This document shows, one piece after another, positions 5,487 to 26,788 of a stretch of 35,535 nt of DNA. A program made the translations under genes and the position numbers. The stretch lies in the IMG/VR virus record IMGVR_UViG_2718218136_000003; one strand, written 5' to 3'. The notes under the pieces are model-generated. The model did no database searches and was not told where the DNA came from. It saw nothing but the letters and a program-made list of their open reading frames with translations. The DNA comes from a virus. Taxonomy: Duplodnaviria; Heunggongvirae; Uroviricota; Caudoviricetes. The stretch's first letter is position 1, and every line of letters begins with the position of its first letter.

Positions 5487-7761
5487 AGCCTCCGGGCGTT
5501 TTGTCCCTCCGTCAGCATTTGCTGCAGGCACCGGTAAGACGTTTACCGGTGCTTATGCATGGAGCGCGCCACGCGAGGCTGTCGGGCGCGAAAGACCCCT
5601 TACACGTGACGAGATGCGTCAGGTGCAAGGTGTTTTATCCACGATTAACCGCCTGCCTTACTTTTTGCGTTCGCTGTTTACTTCACGCTATGACTACATC
5701 CGGCGCAATAAAAGCCCGGTGCACGGGTTTTATTTCCTCACATCCACTTTTCAGCGCCGTTTATGGCCGCGCATTGAGCGTGTGAATCAGCGCCATGAAA
5801 TGAACACCGACGCGTCGTTACTGTTTCTGGCAGAGCGTGACCACTATGCGCGCCTGCCGGGAATGAATGACAAGGAGCTGAAAAAGTTTGCTGCCCGTAT
5901 CTCATCGCAGCTTTTCATGATGTATGAGGAACTCAGCGATGCCTGGGTGGATGCGCATGGCGAAAAAGAATCGCTGTTTACGGATGAGGCGCAGGCTCAC
6001 CTCTATGGTCATGTTGCTGGCGCTGCACGTGCTTTCAATATATCCCCTCTCTACTGGAAAAAATACCGTAAAGGGCAGATGACCACGAGGCAGGCATATT
6101 CTGCCATTGCCCGTCTGTTTAACGATGAGTGGTGGACTCATCAGCTTAAAGGCCAGCGTATGCGCTGGCATGAGGCGTTACTGATTGCTGTCGGGGAGGT
6201 CAATAAAGACCGTTCTCCTTATGCCAGTAAACATGCCATTCGTGATGTGCGTGCACGCCGCCAGGCAAATCTGGAATTTCTTAAATCGTGTGATCTCGAA
6301 AACAGGGAAACCGGCGAGCGCATCGACCTTATCAGTAAGGTGATGGGCAGTATTTCTAATCCTGAAATTCGCCGGATGGAGCTGATGAACACCATTGCCG
6401 GTATTGAGCGTTACGCCGCAGCAGAGGGTGATGTGGGGATGTTTATCACGCTGACCGCGCCGTCAAAGTATCACCCGACACGTCAGGTCAGAAAAGGCGA
6501 AAGTAAAACCGTCCAGCTAAATCACGGCTGGAACGATGAGGCATTTAATCCAAAGGATGCGCAGCGTTATCTCTGCCGTATCTGGAGCCTGATGCGCACG
6601 GCATTCAAGGATAATGATTTACAGGTCTACGGTTTGCGTGTCGTCGAGCCACACCACGACGGAACGCCGCACTGGCATATGATGCTTTTTTGTAATCCGC
6701 GCCAGCGTAACCAGATTATCGAAATCATGCGTCGCTATGCGCTCAAAGAGGATGGCGACGAAAGAGGAGCCGCGCGAAACCGTTTTCAGGCAAAACACCT
6801 TAATCGGGGCGGTGCTGCGGGGTATATCGCGAAATACATCTCAAAAAACATCGACGGCTATGCACTGGATGGTCAGCTCGATAACGATACCGGCAGACCT
6901 CTGAAAGATACTGCCGCGGCTGTTACTGCATGGGCGTCAACGTGGCGCATCCCGCAATTTAAAACGGTTGGTCTGCCGACAATGGGGGCTTACCGTGAAC
7001 TACGCAAATTGCCGCGCGGTGTCAGCATTGCTGATGAGTTTGACGAGCGCGTCGAGGCTGCACGCGCCGCCGCAGACAGTGGTGATTTTGCGTTGTATAT
7101 CAGCGCGCAGGGTGGGGCAAATGTCCCGCGCGATTGTCAGACTGTCAGGGTCGCCCGTAGCCCGTCGGATGACGTTAACGAGTACGAGGAAGAGGTCGAG
7201 AGAGTGGTCGGCATTTACGCGCCGCATCTCGGCGCGCGTCATATTCATATCACCAGAACGACGGACTGGCGCATTGTGCCGAAAGCTCCGGTCGTTGAGC
7301 CTTTGACTTTAAAAAGCGGCATCGCCGCGCCTCGGAGTCCTGTCAATAACTGTGGAAAGCTCACCGGTGGTGATACTTCGTTACCGGCTCCCACACCTTC
7401 TGAGCACGCCGCAGCAGTGCTAAATCTGGTTGATGACGGTGTTATCGAATGGAATGACCCGGAGGTTGTGAGGACGCTCAGGGGTGCATTAAAACACGGC
7501 CTGAAAACACCAAATCGTCAGCAAAGAAACGGAAGCCCGTTAAAACCACATGAAATAACACCGTCGGCCAGACTGACCCGGTCGGAACGATTGCAAATTA
7601 CCCGTATCCGCGTTGACCTCGCTCAGAACGGTATCAGGCCGCAACGATGGGAGCTTGAGGCGCTGGCGCGTGGCGCGACAGTAAATTATGACGGGAAAAA
7701 ATTCACGTATCCGGTCGCTGATGAGTGGTCGGGATTCTCAACAGTAATGGAGTGGACATGA
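5476..7761 (+). CDS. A: Replication initiation protein A (rolling-circle nicking protein), 761 aa
   Basis: ORF 5434-7761 trimmed to ATG at 5476, giving 761 aa as in P2 A; contains the HUH-type motif region (…PHHDGTPHWHMMLF…) and the YxxK-like region (AGYIAKYISK). Confidence 0.9.
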   Translation: MAIKASGRFVPPSAFAAGTGKTFTGAYAWSAPREAVGRERPLTRDEMRQVQGVLSTINRLPYFLRSLFTSRYDYIRRNKSPVHGFYFLTSTFQRRLWPRIERVNQRHEMNTDASLLFLAERDHYARLPGMNDKELKKFAARISSQLFMMYEELSDAWVDAHGEKESLFTDEAQAHLYGHVAGAARAFNISPLYWKKYRKGQMTTRQAYSAIARLFNDEWWTHQLKGQRMRWHEALLIAVGEVNKDRSPYASKHAIRDVRARRQANLEFLKSCDLENRETGERIDLISKVMGSISNPEIRRMELMNTIAGIERYAAAEGDVGMFITLTAPSKYHPTRQVRKGESKTVQLNHGWNDEAFNPKDAQRYLCRIWSLMRTAFKDNDLQVYGLRVVEPHHDGTPHWHMMLFCNPRQRNQIIEIMRRYALKEDGDERGAARNRFQAKHLNRGGAAGYIAKYISKNIDGYALDGQLDNDTGRPLKDTAAAVTAWASTWRIPQFKTVGLPTMGAYRELRKLPRGVSIADEFDERVEAARAAADSGDFALYISAQGGANVPRDCQTVRVARSPSDDVNEYEEEVERVVGIYAPHLGARHIHITRTTDWRIVPKAPVVEPLTLKSGIAAPRSPVNNCGKLTGGDTSLPAPTPSEHAAAVLNLVDDGVIEWNDPEVVRTLRGALKHGLKTPNRQQRNGSPLKPHEITPSARLTRSERLQITRIRVDLAQNGIRPQRWELEALARGATVNYDGKKFTYPVADEWSGFSTVMEWT

Positions 7762-8213
7762 TGGCAAAAATTCACGAGGTAAAGCTGCACGCAAAATATT
7801 TCGACCTTGTGCTGGAAGGAAAGAAACGCGCAGAGTTTCGGAAAAATGACCGTAATTATGAGCGCGGGGACACGTTGATTTTGCATGAATGGGGGCAGGG
7901 TGTGTATACGGGGCGAAAGGTTGAAGCCCGGATAACAGATGTTACTGACCTGTCAGACTGGCTGGAAGATTATGTCTTGCTAAGTATTGAGCTGCTTAAT
8001 ACAGGCGCATATGAGATTGTGAACTGGAAAGAACTTAGTGAGCGTGGTCTGTTATTCAGAATTAATCATGAAATTATGCATAAGCTCGGCCTTGCTGTTA
8101 TGTATGAACCAGAGACGGGAATGTCTGGCGGGGCAATGGTTGCCACGGATGGAGCATGGAACTATTCAGATGAACAGATGGAGCGTGCACAGCAAAACGG
8201 GTGGCTTGGATAA
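7758..8213 (+). CDS. ASCH/PUA-like (DUF3850-type) protein (P2 orf91 position), about 151 aa
   Basis: ATG at 7758 overlapping the A stop; N-terminal region (KIHEVKLHAKYFDLVLEGKKRAEFRKNDRNYERGDTLILHEW) resembles ASCH-domain proteins as I recall them. Confidence 0.65.
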   Translation: MMAKIHEVKLHAKYFDLVLEGKKRAEFRKNDRNYERGDTLILHEWGQGVYTGRKVEARITDVTDLSDWLEDYVLLSIELLNTGAYEIVNWKELSERGLLFRINHEIMHKLGLAVMYEPETGMSGGAMVATDGAWNYSDEQMERAQQNGWLG

Positions 8214-8419
8214 TGCACAGAATACCAGGCGAGATACCGCACCATAAAACTAAAAATATCAAGCTGATGGCTATTGTTCAGCGTTTACAGCGGATTATGG
8301 TCAACGAAAATCTGACGCCCGATGAGCTAGTCGGGTGTGCCGAAATAGTCCGGGATAATTACGGGCGGTTTAACTATATCGGTCAGTCCAGAGTTGCGCC
8401 ACCACCACGCAGACGATAG
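8213..8419 (+). CDS. Hypothetical small protein, 68 aa, translationally coupled to orf91 (TAATG overlap)
   Basis: ORF 8201-8419 trimmed to ATG at 8213; no recognisable domain; may be an ORF-finder artefact. Confidence 0.35.
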   Translation: MHRIPGEIPHHKTKNIKLMAIVQRLQRIMVNENLTPDELVGCAEIVRDNYGRFNYIGQSRVAPPPRRR

Positions 8420-8421
8420 AT

Positions 8422-8464
8422 AACGCCGCCAGTCGTGAAACTTGTTTTCAGGGCTGGCGGCGTT
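8422..8464 (+). other. Perfect 11-bp inverted repeat (AACGCCGCCAG / CTGGCGGCGTT) with 21-nt loop directly after the 8419 stop; candidate RNA stem-loop or terminator without U-tract
   Basis: Inverted repeat read from sequence. Confidence 0.4.
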
Positions 8465-8490
8465 GAACAACGAGTGAAGCGAGGCGTTAG
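8431..8490 (+). repeat. Copy A of a ~60-bp imperfect direct repeat (about 75% identical to copy B) upstream of cargo gene 1
   Basis: Manual alignment to 9401-9460 gives 45 of 60 matching positions, with long conserved blocks (TGAAACTTG, TGGCGG, GTTGA, GTTAG). Confidence 0.6.
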
Positions 8491-8648
8491 TTGACATTCA
8501 TATTTTTACTGCGTTGGTGCTGTTTTTTGACGGTTGAAAGGAGTTATCTCGGAGAGCTAAAGCTAACAACTTACAAATATTCAAAAGTAAGCTTCCTGTT
8601 GCTAACATAAGGTCGATTTTTTATGTGGATGATGCAAAAAGGATAGCT

Positions 8649-9380
8649 ATGGATACTATAATCGCTTTTCTATCACTCGCTTTTTTTGTTGCTTTTTTCA
8701 TCGGGTTAATCAAGCCATCACTGGTGCGAATGCCAAGCCGCAAACGTGCAAGTGCGGTTTATCTCGGAGGAGGTTTTGTATTGAGCATAATTGGTTCAAT
8801 ACTCTATCCAACAGAAAAAAGCCAGCCAGTTGCTAAAACTGAAACATCAACCGTTGTAGAACACCAAGTCCAAAAAACATTCGAATATGGTGAAAAAACA
8901 CTCAAGGAATATCGGAGCGAGCCAAAGAAAACTCGACACGATATTGTGAATAGTTACATTGACTTTAAGAAAGTTCCAGTCACCGCATCAGATGCATTTT
9001 ATGCCTGCATGAGTGAGTATACATTTACCAAAGATGATGAGTTGAAACTCGGTGATGTTCTTGGGTGGTGCTTTAATGATTATGAAAATGACCCGAGTTC
9101 ACTAAATAATAAAATCAATCTTGATACATTTCAGAGTAATTTTAGTGGTTGGGATGGTTCTTATCGTCCATTGGAAAAACTAATTAAAGATAATATGAAC
9201 GATGATTCATCTTATAAACATGTATCAACGGTATATCATTTAGTTTTGAATAAAGACCCGCACGCCATTGTGAAAACGACGTTTCGCGGCACTAATGCTT
9301 ATGGTGGCATGGTCAAACAGACTGTAGCAGCGCGAGTTGACGTGCGAACGGGTGAGATCGATTCAATACTCGACAATTAA
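8649..9380 (+). CDS. Uncharacterised membrane-anchored protein, 243 aa: two predicted N-terminal TM helices plus ~170-aa soluble domain; cargo in the tin/old slot
   Basis: ORF 8625-9380 trimmed to ATG at 8649 with AAGGA Shine-Dalgarno 6 nt upstream; hydrophobic stretches IIAFLSLAFFVAFFIGLI and AVYLGGGFVLSIIGSILY; AT-rich codon usage unlike the phage backbone. Confidence 0.6.
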   Translation: MDTIIAFLSLAFFVAFFIGLIKPSLVRMPSRKRASAVYLGGGFVLSIIGSILYPTEKSQPVAKTETSTVVEHQVQKTFEYGEKTLKEYRSEPKKTRHDIVNSYIDFKKVPVTASDAFYACMSEYTFTKDDELKLGDVLGWCFNDYENDPSSLNNKINLDTFQSNFSGWDGSYRPLEKLIKDNMNDDSSYKHVSTVYHLVLNKDPHAIVKTTFRGTNAYGGMVKQTVAARVDVRTGEIDSILDN

Positions 9381-9400
9381 ATAATATAGTGACAGCTCCG

Positions 9401-9460
9401 TCAGTGATGAAACTTGCTTTTAGTCTTGGCGGGGTTGAGCAATGAGTCTTGCAAGGTGTT
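9401..9460 (+). repeat. Copy B of the ~60-bp imperfect direct repeat, running into the ribosome-binding site and start codon of cargo gene 2
   Basis: Manual alignment to 8431-8490; copy B ends GTTAGC immediately before ATG 9464. Confidence 0.6.
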
Positions 9461-9463
9461 AGC

Positions 9464-10120
9464 ATGCGTAGAATGGAAGCTGCTTGGACGTGGGGTATTC
9501 ATATGAATTTAAAAATTTTCGGCATAATTGTCCTTTCTGCTTTGATGTTCGTTTTAGGTTTTTTTCTCGGTGGTTTTAATTGGGAATGGGCTGATAAGAA
9601 TTATGCAGGTGAGGTGGCGTTGTGGAGTATGTTAGGAGGGTGGTTATCCGCAATTGCAACTCTGTTTGCCGTGTTGGTTTCATTATATATGGCGTATCAA
9701 GCTACTCAGAATGAGATTGAAAAAATCAGGGTTACTCATGGAGTAAGTATGAGTGTCACTCATGACAATGAGTTAAGTTGTAATCTCATTATTCAGAACT
9801 TGAGAAATATGAAAGTGAATATTACTGGTGTTTTTTTGTCTCTAGGTAAATCATCAGGTAAGTACTCTTTGGATAAAGTAATTGACAATCGTAATATAAC
9901 GCTTTCATATAAAGGTGAAACAGAAAAGGTACAATTTGTAATCCATTCTGGGTATATTTGGTGGTCAATGTATAAATTATTCGATATGGATAAGAACATA
10001 GGTTTTGAAAAGGGTAAGATCTTGATAACAACCAACCTCAATACATATGAATTTGATTTGCCAAAAGAATATTTAAGAGCTTTTGAGAAAGCTTATTCGG
10101 AGTATCAGACAAAAAAATAA
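9464..10120 (+). CDS. Uncharacterised membrane-anchored protein, 218 aa: two predicted N-terminal TM helices plus ~150-aa soluble domain; cargo in the tin/old slot
   Basis: ORF 9449-10120 trimmed to ATG at 9464 with AAGGTG 5 nt upstream; hydrophobic stretches IFGIIVLSALMFVLGFFLGGF and WSMLGGWLSAIATLFAVLVSLYMAY; AT-rich. Confidence 0.6.
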   Translation: MRRMEAAWTWGIHMNLKIFGIIVLSALMFVLGFFLGGFNWEWADKNYAGEVALWSMLGGWLSAIATLFAVLVSLYMAYQATQNEIEKIRVTHGVSMSVTHDNELSCNLIIQNLRNMKVNITGVFLSLGKSSGKYSLDKVIDNRNITLSYKGETEKVQFVIHSGYIWWSMYKLFDMDKNIGFEKGKILITTNLNTYEFDLPKEYLRAFEKAYSEYQTKK

Positions 10121-10249
10121 TGAGCTGCATGCAAAAGGTGCATGTTTTTGCATGTGCTAAGTTCACTGGTTTTGTGTATATCGCTTCAGATCTAGCGTGG
10201 TTCCGGGGAGGGCATGCAACTGCATTAAAACCGCTCCATGAAGCGGGCG

Positions 10250-10268
10250 GGCGAGGCGGGGAAAGCAC
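10250..10268. other. cos site: 19-nt cohesive-end sequence GGCGAGGCGGGGAAAGCAC
   Basis: Exact string found about 170 bp beyond the Q stop codon, at the position of cos in P2; matches the P2 cohesive-end sequence as I recall it. Confidence 0.7.
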
Positions 10269-10437
10269 TGCGCGCTGGCGGTGGTGCTGATTTTATTTTT
10301 TCAGCGTCTGAGCGCGTCGTGATGGCGTTTAGATTGTTCGCCGGGGCGTTGGTGTGTCTGCGGGATGTTTTGTACGGTGGTGAGCGTGTGAGGGCGTGAT
10401 GACAGGGTGTAAAAAAGCCGCCCGCAGGCGGCGATGT

Positions 10438-11472
10438 TCAGCCGTTGTCAGTGTCCAGTGAGTAGTTTTTAAAGCGGATGACCTCCTGACCGAGCCAGCC
10501 GTTTATCTCGCGGATCCTGTCCTGTAACGGGATAAGCTCATTGCGGACAAAGACCTTTGCCACTTTCTCAATATCACCCAGCGACCCGACGTTCTCCGGC
10601 TTGCCGCCCATCAACTGAAAGGGGATGCGGTGCGCGTCCAGCAGGTCAGCGGCGCTGGCTTTTTTGATATTAAAAAAATCGTCCTTCGTCGCCACTTCAC
10701 TGAGGGGGATAATTTTAATGCCGTCGGCTTTCCCCTGCGGGGCATAGAGAAACAGATTTTTAAAGTTATTGCGGCCTTTCGACTTAACCATGTTTTCGCG
10801 AAGCATTTCGATATCGTTGCGATCCTGCACGGCATCGGTGACGTACATGATGTATCCGGCATGTGCGCCGTTTTCGTAATACTTGCGGCGGAACAGCGTG
10901 GCCGACTCATTCAGCCAGGCAGAGTTAAGGGCGCTGAGATATTCCGGCAGGCCGTACAGCTCCTGATTAATATCGGGCTCCAGCAGGTGAAACACGGAGC
11001 CGGGCGCGAAGGCTGTCGGCTCGTTGAAGGACGGCACCCACCAGTAAACATCCTCTTCCACGCCACGACGGGTATATTTTGCCGGTGAGGTTTCCAGTCT
11101 GATGACCTTACCGGTGGTGCTGTAGCGCTTTTCCAGAAACGCATTACCGAACACCAGAAAATCCAGCACAAAGCGGCTGAAATCCTGCTGGGAAAGCCAC
11201 GGGTGCGGGATAAACGTTGAAGCCAGAATATTACGTTTGACGTAAATCGGTGAGCTGTGATGCACGGCAGCACGCAGACTTTTTGCCAGACCGGTAAAGC
11301 TGACCGGCGGCTCATACCATCTGCCGTTACTGATGCATTCGACGTAATCCAGAATGTCACGGCGGTCGAGTACCGGCACCGGCTCGCCAAAGGTGAATGC
11401 CTCCATTTTCGGGGCGATGGCGGTCATGGTTTTTGCCGCAGGTTGCGGTGTTTTCCCTTTTTTCTTGCTCAT
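10438..11472 (-). CDS. Q: Portal protein Q, 344 aa
   Basis: 344-aa ORF on the minus strand in the P2 Q position, same length as P2 Q. Confidence 0.9.
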   Translation of the reverse strand: MSKKKGKTPQPAAKTMTAIAPKMEAFTFGEPVPVLDRRDILDYVECISNGRWYEPPVSFTGLAKSLRAAVHHSSPIYVKRNILASTFIPHPWLSQQDFSRFVLDFLVFGNAFLEKRYSTTGKVIRLETSPAKYTRRGVEEDVYWWVPSFNEPTAFAPGSVFHLLEPDINQELYGLPEYLSALNSAWLNESATLFRRKYYENGAHAGYIMYVTDAVQDRNDIEMLRENMVKSKGRNNFKNLFLYAPQGKADGIKIIPLSEVATKDDFFNIKKASAADLLDAHRIPFQLMGGKPENVGSLGDIEKVAKVFVRNELIPLQDRIREINGWLGQEVIRFKNYSLDTDNG

Positions 11473-19683: not shown

Positions 19684-20469
19684 TTATGAGTGATTTTTAT
19701 TTGATGCTTTGTATTCTACAACCTTCTTATTGGCGTAAAGGAATTTTGTATATGACAGGAATATAACCAGACCTGAAATGAAATAGATGAGGGATGTTAT
19801 TAATAATGCTTTTTTTTGGCTGTTATTATCTTTAATCTCCTGACTTAACCATTCGGAGTCCTCCTCGTTTAGCTGTAAGAGCTTATTGCAGGCGATCTCA
19901 GGAAGTGTGTCTTTTATAAATACGTTTCGTAGCCTCTTGCAATCGGCAAGGCTATAAGTTTTATTGAATTCAACTGTTTTATTGTTGAAGGATAAAAGAA
20001 CTTTGTCACTATAAACATAGTACATCATATTTTTATATGGTATGCCTATGGCATCTCTTACTATAGCGGATTGTTTGTTGTGTATATAACATGCGAAGAG
20101 AATATAAATAATACTGGACAGAATTACAATTATTGTTTTAATTATGTGTGGTGGTTTTGTTATGTCACCCCAGAAGCGAGTAAGAAAAAAATACGATGTT
20201 TTTAGTTTTCCATCAATCAGCCCCTGCTGTATCATTCTCACATCTTCGATGCCTGATACATTGATTCCGTTAATTATTTTAAATAGTTGAATGTCGCGCC
20301 ATTTTTTGTCGAGCATTTTTAACTTTCTGTCTGAATACTCAAAATTGAAATGATGTGCAATAAACCTCATAAGATTACTTTTACCAAAGGTAATAAATGT
20401 TAATGCTATTAATAAAAATAGATACAAAGAGATAAACCACCACGCATTAGTCACATTATCACTGAACAT
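19684..20469 (-). CDS. Uncharacterised AT-rich integral membrane protein, 261 aa (P2 orf30 slot)
   Basis: Opposite strand to flanking tail genes; three strongly hydrophobic segments (WWFISLYLFLLIALTFITF, IIKTIIVILSSIIYILFACYI, ALLITSLIYFISGLVIFLSY); GAGGAGAG Shine-Dalgarno before ATG; Lys/Asn/Ile-rich composition. Confidence 0.6.
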   Translation of the reverse strand: MFSDNVTNAWWFISLYLFLLIALTFITFGKSNLMRFIAHHFNFEYSDRKLKMLDKKWRDIQLFKIINGINVSGIEDVRMIQQGLIDGKLKTSYFFLTRFWGDITKPPHIIKTIIVILSSIIYILFACYIHNKQSAIVRDAIGIPYKNMMYYVYSDKVLLSFNNKTVEFNKTYSLADCKRLRNVFIKDTLPEIACNKLLQLNEEDSEWLSQEIKDNNSQKKALLITSLIYFISGLVIFLSYTKFLYANKKVVEYKASNKNHS

Positions 20470-20552
20470 TACGCTCTCCTCGAATGTTGTATGGTCGTTC
20501 TACAAATGAATCCAGATAGCATAACTTTTATATATTGTGCAATCTCACACGC

Positions 20553-21188
20553 ATGAACACTCTCGCAAATATTCAGGAACTCGCGCGCGCACTGCGCAAC
20601 ATGATTCGTACCGGCCTTGTCGTCGAAACCAACCTTAAAGCCGGTCGCTGCCGTGTGCAGACCGGTGGCATGTGCACTGACTGGCTTCAGTGGCTGACCC
20701 ATCGTGCCGGACGTTCGCGCACATGGTGGGCACCTTCCGTGGGGGAACAGGTGCTGATTCTGGCTGTGGGCGGTGAACTCGACACGGCGTTCGTTCTGCC
20801 GGGGATTTATTCCGGCGATAACCCCGCGCCGTCTGCGTCGGCGGATGCCCTGCATATCCGTTTCCCTGACGGGGCGGTGATTGAGTATGAACCCGAAACC
20901 AGTGCACTCACGGTAAGCGGAATTAAAACGGTCAGCGTGACGGCTTCTGATTCTGTTACCGCCACGGTGCCGGTGGTCATGGTGAAAGCGTCAACCCGCA
21001 TCACCCTGGACACACCGGAGGTGGTCTGCACCAACAGGCTGATTACCGGCACGCTGGAAGTACAGAAGGGCGGGACGATGCGCGGCAACATTGAACACAC
21101 CGGCGGTGAACTCTCATCAAACGGTAAGGTACTGCATACCCATAAACACCCCGGCGACAGCGGCGGCACAACCGGGGGACCTCTATGA
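20553..21188 (+). CDS. V: Baseplate spike / hub protein V, 211 aa
   Basis: ORF 20535-21188 trimmed to MNTLANIQEL, giving the P2 V length. Confidence 0.85.
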   Translation: MNTLANIQELARALRNMIRTGLVVETNLKAGRCRVQTGGMCTDWLQWLTHRAGRSRTWWAPSVGEQVLILAVGGELDTAFVLPGIYSGDNPAPSASADALHIRFPDGAVIEYEPETSALTVSGIKTVSVTASDSVTATVPVVMVKASTRITLDTPEVVCTNRLITGTLEVQKGGTMRGNIEHTGGELSSNGKVLHTHKHPGDSGGTTGGPL

Positions 21189-26032: not shown

Positions 26033-26788
26033 CTATTCCTTGGCCTCTTTATTTTTCTCGCCATCGCCAATGTAAAGAAGATAATCGTTTAAGGATATCC
26101 TTCCGGAGGGGCCGGTCCATGTTATCAATCCGTTCTCACGAAGATTAAATAATGCTTCCATGAACTCATTATCGTTAAAAGAATGATCCTCTGAGAACAG
26201 AATGTTCATTTTTCTCAATAGTTCTTCCACTTTAATCTTTTCATATCGCCTTATCAGACTTAGTGCTTTACGACGCATTAAGATTGTAGGTACTGCTTGT
26301 GAACGAATGGTTTTTTGTATTCCACTATCAAGAACTTTCTTGATCTTGCTCTCTAACTCTTTGATTTTAGTTTCATTATCTCCATTGGACTTAAGCTTTT
26401 CATCAACGATGCAAATAATTTCCTGACTAATGCTGTTCTTGAGGTTGTTTATTTTTTCTTCATTGTTGAGAATCTCATCAGAGCTTCCTGCATGGGGTTT
26501 TTTCCATATGTGCTGACGCATATCCGTTACCGTATCTCTCATCATAGAGAATGTATCTGAATATAACTTGTCAAATATTTTTTCCAGTCGTTCGACACTT
26601 GCCTGGATGTCTTTTGCTGCTTTAGTTGTCTCTTTAGAAGCCTCATTCGACATTTTATAAAAAACAAAAGAAAGCCAAATAGCCCCAATGGCGAGTACTA
26701 ATGAGGCTATTGTGGCAATAAAACCTATTATTGTTATTGCTGTATCTAATGTGCCTGCTGCATCTGTGACTACTGTTTCTGCTGCCAT
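26033..26788 (-). CDS. Uncharacterised AT-rich membrane-anchored coiled-coil protein, 251 aa (P2 Z/fun slot)
   Basis: Opposite strand to the tail genes; N-terminal hydrophobic helix (ITIIGFIATIASLVLAIGAIWLSFVFY) followed by a Lys/Glu-rich region; GAGGAT Shine-Dalgarno before ATG at 26788. Confidence 0.6.
   Translation of the reverse strand: MAAETVVTDAAGTLDTAITIIGFIATIASLVLAIGAIWLSFVFYKMSNEASKETTKAAKDIQASVERLEKIFDKLYSDTFSMMRDTVTDMRQHIWKKPHAGSSDEILNNEEKINNLKNSISQEIICIVDEKLKSNGDNETKIKELESKIKKVLDSGIQKTIRSQAVPTILMRRKALSLIRRYEKIKVEELLRKMNILFSEDHSFNDNEFMEALFNLRENGLITWTGPSGRISLNDYLLYIGDGEKNKEAKE

What the first reader, a model, noticed from the sequence alone, without database searches (positions are those of the whole stretch)
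8213..10120. The tin/old slot of this P2-like prophage carries an uncharacterised two-gene membrane-protein module
In P2 the interval between the replication genes (A, orf91) and cos/Q holds the superinfection-exclusion genes tin and old, and this slot is a known variable hotspot for anti-phage cargo in P2-like prophages. Here neither tin nor old is present. The slot holds a 68-aa ORF coupled to orf91 and two co-directional AT-rich genes (8649-9380 and 9464-10120). Each encodes a protein with two N-terminal transmembrane helices and a 150-170-aa soluble domain in which I recognise no known catalytic or binding motif. Position, composition and architecture fit a horizontally acquired exclusion or abortive-infection module, but function is not shown by the sequence.
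Basis: partly seen in the sequence, partly recalled or inferred. Interest (0 to 1): 0.85.

Follow-up and report, generated by a model that had tools for sequence, protein, structure and literature searches.

The report
Two stacked phage-exclusion candidate genes, one known
The gap next to the packaging site of this P2-like prophage holds two separate membrane-protein genes: a close copy of phage 186 orf97, already reported to block 186 infection, and an untested gene from a fast-evolving family of phage accessory proteins. Both are already catalogued, so this is a reasonable test candidate, not a surprise.

Summary
The ORFs at 8213-8419, 8649-9380 and 9464-10120 are real. The two large ones are AT-rich (GC 0.32-0.40 against 0.50-0.58 in the flanks). 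Each starts with two transmembrane helices, and tin and old are absent.

- **Gene 1 is not uncharacterised.** It is a same-length, 78%-identical homologue of coliphage 186 Orf97. The GenBank note for Orf97 reads "expression from plasmid blocks 186 infection".
- **The genes are not an obligate pair.** Orf97 homologues occur without gene 2 in 59 of 80 viral contigs. Gene-2 relatives occur without Orf97 in 3 of 19. Orf97 sequences group by phage backbone, not by downstream cargo. A conserved ~70-nt RNA hairpin separates the two cassettes.
- **The 68-aa ORF is P2 backbone, not cargo.**
- **Both genes are already listed.** Rousset et al. 2022 record them as separate single-gene "2 TM" systems, #12 and #30, of the P2 hotspot. 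Neither appears in that paper's table of cloned and tested systems.

Gene 1 is predicted to expose a disulfide-bearing alpha/beta domain to the periplasm. It most likely blocks genome entry. Gene 2 is a membrane anchor plus a probably cytoplasmic Ig-like beta-sandwich with no enzyme fold. Relatives sit in accessory slots of several phage types, so it is probably a second exclusion or abortive-infection determinant, but this is unproven.

Interest is moderate to low.

The parts
7761..8213 (+). orf91 homologue (DUF3850/ASCH + DUF7415). P2 backbone, last recognisable early-operon gene before the slot.
   Evidence: Pfam DUF3850 6.6e-18, DUF7415 3e-13, ASCH 5e-11. RefSeq CDS at the same coordinates.
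8213..8419 (+). 68-aa ORF coupled to orf91 (TAATG overlap). Conserved P2-like backbone, not cargo.
   Evidence: phrog_11386 6e-39. Present with many different cargos. P2-like phages without Orf97 share the DNA up to about 8492. Detected by tblastn in divergent P2-like loci L033 and L034.
8421..8490 (+). Copy 1 of a conserved ~70-nt hairpin element: long stem, then the tail GTTGAACAACGAG-N4-GCGAGGCGTTAG. It marks the left edge of the variable slot.
   Evidence: Inverted repeat with 19-nt arms, 89% complementary. RNA MFE -34 kcal/mol. nhmmer E=2.5e-20. 9 of 20 predicted pairs show compensatory changes, with many G-U pairs, in 52 distinct copies. No Rfam match.
8491..8648 (+). Leader of gene 1, 95% conserved among P2-like prophages that carry Orf97. 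No LexA box and no promoter at the scan threshold. The weak candidate TTCAAA(8580-8585)-17-TAACAT(8603-8608) is my own reading.
   Evidence: Alignment A4. Promoter scan found nothing in 8420-8648. LexA scan negative. Sequence read. Homology to 186 starts only at about 8617.
8649..9380 (+). Gene 1: homologue of coliphage 186 orf97. Predicted topology is N-out, TM, cytoplasmic RMPSRKRAS loop, TM, disordered linker, then a periplasmic alpha/beta domain with an invariant Cys pair (C120, C141).
9393..9462 (+). Copy 2 of the hairpin element, 74% identical to copy 1. It fills the gene 1 - gene 2 spacer, and its tail supplies the AAGGTG Shine-Dalgarno for the 9464 start.
   Evidence: Direct repeat D1. 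nhmmer E=2.3e-18. The same element follows orf97 in 186 and in 58 of 80 Orf97 loci.
9464..10120 (+). Gene 2: member of an uncharacterised phage accessory family. It has a 2-TM anchor (TM2 is the most conserved part), an Ig/Fn3-like beta-sandwich (88-198) and a C-terminal helix. The conserved family start is M14 (9503).
10127..10150 (+). Terminator-like hairpin plus T-run directly after gene 2.
   Evidence: Terminator scan. Sequence.
10250..10268 (.). cos 19-mer GGCGAGGCGGGGAAAGCAC. The cargo therefore lies at the right end of the packaged genome. The RefSeq ORF at 10238-10399 overlaps it and is doubtful.
   Evidence: Sequence. The same 19-mer occurs in the P4 cos-proximal clones listed by Rousset et al.. 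Its identity as the P2 cohesive end is from my own knowledge.
10438..11472 (-). Portal gene Q, the right border of the hotspot.
   Evidence: ORF list. RefSeq 'phage portal protein'.

Best explanation
The interval holds two independent single-gene accessory cassettes, stacked between the P2 early operon and cos. Each is preceded by a copy of a conserved RNA hairpin element that marks the cassette junction.

**Cassette 1 (8649-9380)** is a homologue of phage 186 orf97, moved onto a P2-like backbone without tum and without the LexA-controlled p95 promoter.
- Its product is an inner-membrane protein. The conserved ~165-aa alpha/beta domain, with an invariant cysteine pair, faces the periplasm.
- Most likely mechanism (inferred): it interferes in the periplasm or at the inner membrane with genome entry of P2/186-type phages. 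It would act like T4 Imm/Sp, P22 SieA or HK97 gp15, not by killing the cell.

**Cassette 2 (9464-10120)** belongs to a separate, rapidly diverging family of phage accessory proteins.
- A conserved membrane anchor (one or two helices) holds a variable Ig-like beta-sandwich at what is probably the cytoplasmic face.
- With no enzyme fold, it most likely works by binding. The variable sandwich would recognise a phage or host component at the membrane. The conserved helix would then either obstruct DNA translocation or oligomerise to depolarise the cell. This is inferred; the anti-phage role itself is unproven.

**Shown:** gene identity, architecture, independence of the two genes, and prior cataloguing.
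**Inferred:** topology, mechanism and expression.
For: Identity of gene 1:
- 78% identity, no gaps, equal length to 186 Orf97.
- The GenBank note for U32222 reads 'expression from plasmid blocks 186 infection'.
- Full-length match to phrog_3403.

Topology of gene 1:
- Family-wide, the loop carries 4.7 K+R and 0.02 D+E. The N-terminus has no positive charge.
- C120 and C141 are invariant in 57 sequences spanning 53-93% identity.
- The best structural neighbours are the periplasmic, disulfide-bonded HdeA and HdeB, followed by periplasmic Rap1a and YmgD.

Independence of the two genes:
- In 5,426 complete E. coli genomes, gene 1 is in 87 and gene 2 in 29.
- Among 80 IMG/VR Orf97 loci, a gene-2 relative follows in 21. 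The rest have no cargo or one of at least 14 unrelated cargos, including an RT-like protein.
- 3 of 19 gene-2-family loci lack Orf97.
- Orf97 identity tracks the backbone, not the cargo.
- Rousset 2022 Table S5B lists them as separate single-gene systems #12 (210 occurrences) and #30 (119 occurrences).

Junction element.

Gene 2:
- AF2 gives a TM hairpin, a beta-sandwich and a C-terminal helix.
- TM2 identity is 0.645 against 0.305 for the C-domain.
- Single-TM relatives have an RR/K-rich flank after the helix, consistent with a cytoplasmic domain.
- Three distant relatives all sit in accessory slots of other prophage types.
Against: - The 186 phenotype is known to me only from a GenBank note and from my memory of Brumby et al. 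1996, which I could not read. It came from plasmid expression against 186 only, and nothing is known of the mechanism.
- The window has no LexA box and no promoter at the scan threshold upstream of gene 1. Expression in the lysogen is therefore unproven. Transcription may depend on read-through of the repressed early operon.
- Gene 2 topology rests on a weak charge bias. The flank after TM2 is net negative in the 2-TM subfamily.
- No experiment exists for any gene-2 relative.
- 16 of 19 gene-2 relatives do follow Orf97, so some cooperation cannot be excluded.
Confidence: 0.55

Rival explanations
1. True two-component membrane module. The Orf97-like protein (periplasmic domain) and the gene-2 protein (cytoplasmic domain) would form one trans-membrane complex through their helices. 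Together they would sense and block, or abort, infection.
For: - All 29 E. coli genomes with gene 2 have gene 1 immediately upstream.
- 16 of 19 IMG/VR loci and all 6 phage records with a gene-2 relative also carry Orf97.
- The most conserved part of gene 2 is a membrane helix with a GG motif. That would suit helix-helix packing with a conserved partner.
- The predicted soluble domains lie on opposite sides of the membrane.
Against: - Orf97 occurs without any gene-2 relative in 59 of 80 loci, and in 186 itself, where it is reported to be sufficient from a plasmid.
- Gene-2 relatives occur without Orf97 in both P2-like and 186-like backbones. Single-TM relatives occur in lambdoid-type prophages where no Orf97 was seen nearby.
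- Orf97 does not co-vary with its cargo.
- A junction element separates the genes.
- The adjacency is explained by both occupying the same narrow slot.
Confidence: 0.15
2. Functions of the phage's own induction or lytic programme, not lysogen defence. The genes would be switched on with the SOS or early transcript. They would make the induced cell refractory to re-infection by progeny or competitors, or otherwise condition the envelope for lytic growth.
For: - In 186, orf97 is the second gene of the LexA-repressed p95 operon behind tum.
- LexA boxes precede tum in every 186-like locus inspected. A second LexA box directly precedes the 85-aa + gene-2-like cassette in L010-L014, L035 and L033/L034.
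- 59 of 80 Orf97 loci are in the tum context.
- In the window no independent promoter is recognisable, and the genes continue the early operon's strand.
Against: - P2-like backbones lack tum and LexA boxes yet keep the genes.
- The AT-rich composition and the cassette-like turnover of gene 2 resemble accessory cargo, not core lytic functions.
- This rival differs from the best explanation mainly in timing of expression, not in molecular action.
Confidence: 0.2
3. Lysogenic-conversion function unrelated to phages. Gene 1 would be a membrane-tethered HdeA-like periplasmic chaperone or stress protein. Gene 2 would be a membrane scaffold.
Against: - No Pfam hit at all was found, so none to an HdeA family.
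- The only recorded phenotype of the family is phage exclusion.
- The family is confined to phage genomes and prophages in every context examined.
Confidence: 0.07

Closest known systems
Coliphage 186 Orf97 (AAC34191, PHROG 3403), second gene of the SOS operon p95-tum-orf97
   Same: Gene 1 is a same-length, 78%-identical homologue. It has the same position between the replication gene and cos, and the same hairpin element downstream. The recorded phenotype of Orf97 is exclusion of 186 when expressed from a plasmid.
   Different: The window has no tum, no p95 promoter and no LexA box. Homology to 186 starts only about 32 nt before the ATG. The backbone is P2-like (cox, orf91), not 186-like. The mechanism of Orf97 itself is unknown.
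Rousset et al. 2022 P2-hotspot catalogue, systems #12 and #30 ('2 TM', no Pfam)
   Same: The protein sequences listed there are near-identical to gene 1 (#12, 210 occurrences) and gene 2 (#30, 119 occurrences). The full arrangement 'DUF3850/ASCH + 3 hypotheticals' appears in Table S5A.
   Different: They are catalogued only. Neither sequence appears in Table S2 of cloned and tested systems. The link between #12 and 186 Orf97 was not found in the text I searched.
Inner-membrane superinfection-exclusion proteins: P22 SieA (PMC10883804); T4 Imm/Sp and HK97 gp15 (from my own knowledge; the HK97 gp15 paper is in the reference list of PMC11436027)
   Same: These are small prophage or phage-encoded inner-membrane proteins without enzymatic domains that block genome entry of related phages. 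SieA also exists as sequence types less than 30% identical, reminiscent of the gene-2 family's divergence.
   Different: No sequence or profile similarity to any named exclusion family. The architecture differs: gene 1 has a large periplasmic alpha/beta domain and gene 2 has a beta-sandwich. A block of DNA injection has not been shown for either.
Membrane-anchored defence proteins acting at the injection site or as pore-forming effectors: SNIPE (PMC13190303); CBASS Cap15-type 2TM + beta-barrel effectors (from my own knowledge)
   Same: An N-terminal membrane anchor is combined with a cytoplasm-facing recognition domain. SNIPE homologues also diversify their domains.
P2 tin and old
   Same: Same genomic slot (gpA to gpQ, next to cos), with an accessory exclusion role in P2.
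   Different: No homology. Tin and Old are soluble cytoplasmic proteins (Old is an ATPase-TOPRIM nuclease). The proteins here are membrane proteins without catalytic folds.

Membership tests
186 Orf97 family (PHROG 3403) | Full-length sequence homology at the conserved length of 243 aa | tested here: met
   78% identity over 243/243 aa with no gaps. phrog_3403 E=6.9e-144 over 1-243/243. 158 homologous clusters, almost all 243 aa.
186 Orf97 family (PHROG 3403) | Location between the replication gene A region and cos/portal in a P2/186-type phage | tested here: met
186 Orf97 family (PHROG 3403) | Membership of the LexA-controlled p95 SOS operon behind tum | tested here: not met
   No tum, and no CTG-N10-CAG LexA box in 7700-10450. 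186 and the 186-like loci inspected have one. 21 of 80 family loci share this P2-like, tum-less context. This feature therefore defines the 186 arrangement, not the protein family.
186 Orf97 family (PHROG 3403) | Exclusion of 186 infection when expressed | not testable with these tools
   Known only from the GenBank note on U32222. Needs plating assays.
P2 Tin / Old exclusion genes | Sequence homology to Tin or to the Old ATPase-TOPRIM nuclease | tested here: not met
   No PADLOC, Pfam or NCBIfam hit. The interval contains only the ORFs described.
Named inner-membrane Sie proteins (T4 Imm, P22 SieA/SieB, HK97 gp15, Cor/Llp) | Profile or sequence similarity to a named family | tested here: not met
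   The Pfam, PHROGs, NCBIfam and PDB sequence searches return only unknown-function PHROGs.
Named inner-membrane Sie proteins (T4 Imm, P22 SieA/SieB, HK97 gp15, Cor/Llp) | Inner-membrane location, with a block of genome entry and no block of adsorption | not testable with these tools
   Membrane helices and topology are predicted only.
CBASS/Pycsar-type 2TM effector (Cap15-like) | Partner nucleotide cyclase in the operon, and a nucleotide-binding beta-barrel matching the family profile | tested here: not met
HdeA/HdeB periplasmic chaperones | HdeA fold with its disulfide, in a small soluble periplasmic protein | tested here: inconclusive
Rousset 2022 P2-hotspot systems #12 and #30 | Near-identical protein sequence in the gpA-gpQ locus of E. 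coli P2-like prophages | tested here: met
   Peptide strings of both proteins were found in Table S5B, rows 12 and 30. WP_042002655 was found in Table S5A.

The most novel reading that the evidence does not exclude
Gene 2 may represent a widespread, unrecognised class of single-protein phage-exclusion determinants. The class would be a conserved membrane helix (one or two TMs) coupled to a hypervariable cytoplasmic Ig-like sandwich. It would sit in accessory slots of P2-like, 186-like and lambdoid-type prophages and often be SOS-controlled. It would sense an incoming phage component at the inner membrane and then block DNA entry or collapse the membrane. In addition, the conserved hairpin RNA flanking the cassettes may be a functional junction or regulatory element that organises cassette exchange and expression in P2/186-type phages.
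Probability: 0.25. Interest if true: 0.6.

Novelty: new member of a known kind. Interest (0 to 1): 0.35.

Why it matters
- Orf97 is carried by most 186-like prophages and a subset of P2-like prophages across Enterobacterales (158 clusters at 90% identity). Its mode of exclusion has never been worked out. A periplasm-facing, disulfide-bonded domain gives a concrete and testable model.
- The gene-2 family (220 representatives at 50% clustering) has no experimental data at all.
- This locus offers both genes in one natural 1.9-kb fragment that is easy to clone.
- The practical gain is modest: one or two more entries in the list of prophage exclusion genes, and a marker (the hairpin element) for delimiting cargo in P2/186-type hotspots.

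Tried and rejected
- **Family libraries.** Pfam, NCBIfam and PADLOC gave nothing credible for either protein. PDB sequence profiles gave nothing.
- **RNA families.** The Rfam scan of 7700-10600 was empty.
- **Regulation.** I looked for a LexA box or a sigma-70 promoter ahead of gene 1. There is none at threshold. Only a weak 8/12 candidate is visible by eye.
- **Genome scan.** The genome-contig scan for gene-2 relatives returned a single locus and was uninformative.
- **Literature.** I tried to read Brumby et al. 1996 and the HK97 gp15 paper; neither is held. The supplements of the 2026 P2/P4 preprint do not list these proteins.
- **Rst_3HP.** I considered that the 'three hypothetical proteins' system validated against P1 by Rousset et al. 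might be this locus. I rejected this because neither protein sequence occurs in their Table S2 of cloned systems.
- **Holin or lysis role.** Considered and set aside. The genes are far from the lysis cassette, and relatives sit beside, not within, lysis genes.
Full report
**1. What is there**

The window is 100% identical over the tested 2.2 kb to the chromosome of E. coli O177:H21 (NZ_CP016546). The RefSeq annotation there shows a P2-like prophage: integrase, C-type repressor, cox, gpA, orf91/DUF3850, portal, terminase and capsid genes.

- 8213-8419: 68 aa, start overlapping the orf91 stop.
- 8649-9380: 243 aa.
- 9464-10120: 218 aa.

GC drops to 0.32-0.40 over 8600-10200, against 0.50-0.58 on either side. 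Both large proteins begin with two hydrophobic helices. The cos 19-mer lies at 10250-10268, so the cargo sits at the very right end of the packaged genome. There is no tin or old, and no Pfam, NCBIfam or PADLOC match for either protein.

**2. Gene 1 is a homologue of 186 orf97**

DNA and protein searches show that gene 1 matches coliphage 186 Orf97. Identity is 78% over all 243 residues, with no gaps. It matches phrog_3403 end to end.

The 186 GenBank record annotates orf97 as 'expression from plasmid blocks 186 infection'. It places the gene behind tum in the LexA-controlled p95 operon. The primary paper (Brumby et al. 1996) is not held. A Salmonella study also recognises tum and orf97 homologues in prophage BTP5.

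The family has 158 clusters at 90% identity across Enterobacterales, nearly all 243 aa long. More distant relatives occur in Vibrio, Aeromonas and Helicobacter phages.

**3. Architecture of gene 1**
- *Charge.* Across 57 family members the inter-helix loop averages 4.7 K+R and 0.02 D+E. The N-terminus has no positive charge. By the positive-inside rule the loop is cytoplasmic and the C-terminal domain periplasmic.
- *Cysteines.* Two cysteines, C120 and C141, are invariant.
- *Model.* AlphaFold2 gives a confident model, with pLDDT above 90 for residues 80-243. It shows a disordered linker (57-74), a helical sub-domain and a four-stranded sheet.

All this points to a periplasm-exposed binding domain tethered to the inner membrane. 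That is the expected form for a protein interfering with genome entry. It is an inference, not a demonstration.

**4. Gene 2**

A single-sequence search found 23 clusters. A profile search found 89, all from Enterobacterales and 24-40% identical to the query. An exhaustive profile search of 1.84 billion representatives found 220 proteins at E of 0.001 or better.

Most homologues start at the residue equivalent to M14. The best-conserved stretch is the second helix and its stalk (MLGGWxSxxATxxAVxVS...YQ...EK), with mean pairwise identity 0.645. The C-terminal domain averages 0.305.

Many distant relatives are 175-185 aa with a single helix followed by an Arg/Lys-rich flank. This supports a cytoplasmic location for the sandwich. 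The charge signal in the 2-TM subfamily itself is weak.

Three distant relatives that I looked up all lie in accessory slots of other prophage types:
- after the lysis cassette;
- between the lysis genes and terminase;
- antisense between terminase and portal.

**5. Are the two genes a module?**

No, on the evidence available.
- *E. coli genomes.* In 5,426 complete genomes, gene 1 occurs in 87 and gene 2 in 29, always together.
- *What else follows Orf97.* In the other genomes Orf97 is followed by divergent gene-2 relatives or by unrelated genes: a 224-aa soluble protein, a 429-aa protein, a 260-aa protein with a C-terminal TM, and a 198-aa protein next to an FRG-domain gene.
- *Viral contigs with Orf97.* Of 80 IMG/VR loci, 59 are 186-like (with tum) and 21 P2-like (with orf91). 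A gene-2 relative follows in 21. The rest have no cargo (about 500 nt to the portal gene, as in 186) or one of at least 14 unrelated cargo families, including a reverse-transcriptase-like protein.
- *Viral contigs with gene-2 relatives.* Of 19 loci, 16 follow Orf97. Three do not: two P2-like and one 186-like.
- *Co-variation.* Orf97 proteins cluster by backbone, at 76-79% identity between P2-like and 186-like and 88-97% within each. They do not cluster by downstream cargo.
- *Prior curation.* Rousset et al. 2022 curated them as two separate single-gene systems of this hotspot, #12 (210 occurrences) and #30 (119 occurrences), each annotated only '2 TM'. The whole arrangement is in their Table S5A. 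Neither sequence is in their table of cloned systems.

**6. The junction element**

The spacer after the 68-aa ORF (8421-8490) and the gene 1 - gene 2 spacer (9393-9462) are a 72-nt direct repeat, 74% identical. It is a conserved element with a long hairpin (-34 kcal/mol for copy 1) and the tail GTTGAACAACGAG-N4-GCGAGGCGTTAG.

Where it occurs:
- after the 68-aa ORF in all 21 P2-like Orf97 loci and in the three P2-like loci without Orf97 that I inspected (L015, L033, L034);
- after orf97 in 186 and in 58 of 80 Orf97 loci;
- after tum in L041.

It is always on the + strand. Homology between phages breaks directly after ...GGCGTTAG. Among 52 distinct copies, 9 of 20 predicted pairs show compensatory changes. 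Several pairs are mostly G-U, which argues for an RNA structure on the coding strand. Rfam has no match.

The element marks the left edge of the variable slot. The window has two copies because the orf97 cassette brought its own.

**7. Regulation**

186 and the 186-like loci inspected have a LexA box ahead of tum. One subfamily of gene-2 relatives carries its own LexA box plus an ORF of about 85 aa. The window has no LexA box in 7700-10450. No promoter reaches the scan threshold between 8420 and 8648. I see only a weak TTCAAA-17-TAACAT candidate at 8580-8608. A terminator-like hairpin follows gene 2.

Whether the genes are expressed in the repressed prophage or only with the early transcript is open. 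This is the main weakness of the 'lysogen defence' reading.

**8. Verdict**

The locus is a stack of two independent accessory cassettes in a known hotspot.
- **Gene 1** is a new copy of a known exclusion gene. It now has a testable topological model.
- **Gene 2** is an untested member of a broad phage accessory family. Its design (conserved membrane helix, variable non-catalytic sandwich) fits a binding-based exclusion or abortive-infection protein.

Nothing here is categorically new, and both genes were already catalogued. The mechanisms of both families remain unknown, which gives the locus moderate experimental value.

Noticed in passing
window 8421-8490 and 9393-9462; also L002 3771-3840 (phage 186) and most related loci: A conserved ~70-nt structured element on the + strand only: a long hairpin with compensatory and G-U changes, then an invariant tail ending GGCGTTAG. 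It marks the left border of the variable slot in both P2-like and 186-like phages. It is not in Rfam and is not annotated in the 186 record. Its function (transcript end or stability, processing site, recombination junction) is unknown.
   Followed up: partly
L010 5681-6651 (Enterobacter prophage); L035 3686; L033/L034 about 3704: One subfamily of gene-2 relatives travels as a LexA-box + ~85-aa ORF + gene-2-like cassette. It is therefore under its own SOS control, even in a P2-like backbone that otherwise lacks LexA sites.
   Followed up: partly
window 19684-20469 (-) and 20469-20855 (-): Two adjoining minus-strand ORFs (261 and 128 aa) lie inside the late-gene region. Neither has a Pfam or PADLOC match. 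This may be another cargo insertion.
   Followed up: partly
window 26033-26788 (-): A 251-aa minus-strand ORF lies where P2 carries Z/fun, the second P2 accessory slot. It has no Pfam or PADLOC match.
   Followed up: partly
window 10238-10399 (+): RefSeq annotates a 53-aa hypothetical protein here. The ORF runs across the cos 19-mer (10250-10268) in GC-rich packaging sequence, so it is probably not a gene.
   Followed up: no
L098 4940-5149 (IMG/VR 186-like contig): A homologue of the P2-type 68-aa ORF sits downstream of Orf97 in a 186-like phage and is followed by another copy of the hairpin element. This is evidence of exchange of small cassettes between the two phage lineages at this junction.
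   Followed up: no
NZ_CM145183.1, E. coli strain E1 (hits H57/H73): In one genome the match to the gene 1 query (8649-9380) is split in two by an IS1A insertion, apparently within gene 1. The locus may therefore be naturally disrupted there.
   Followed up: no
L120 4783-6339 (-), L119 4813-5760 (-): Other cargo seen after Orf97 includes a 518-aa reverse-transcriptase-like protein (by my reading of its sequence) and a 315-aa protein that I took by eye to be a nuclease. Neither was checked further. They illustrate how diverse the slot immediately right of the hairpin element is.
   Followed up: no
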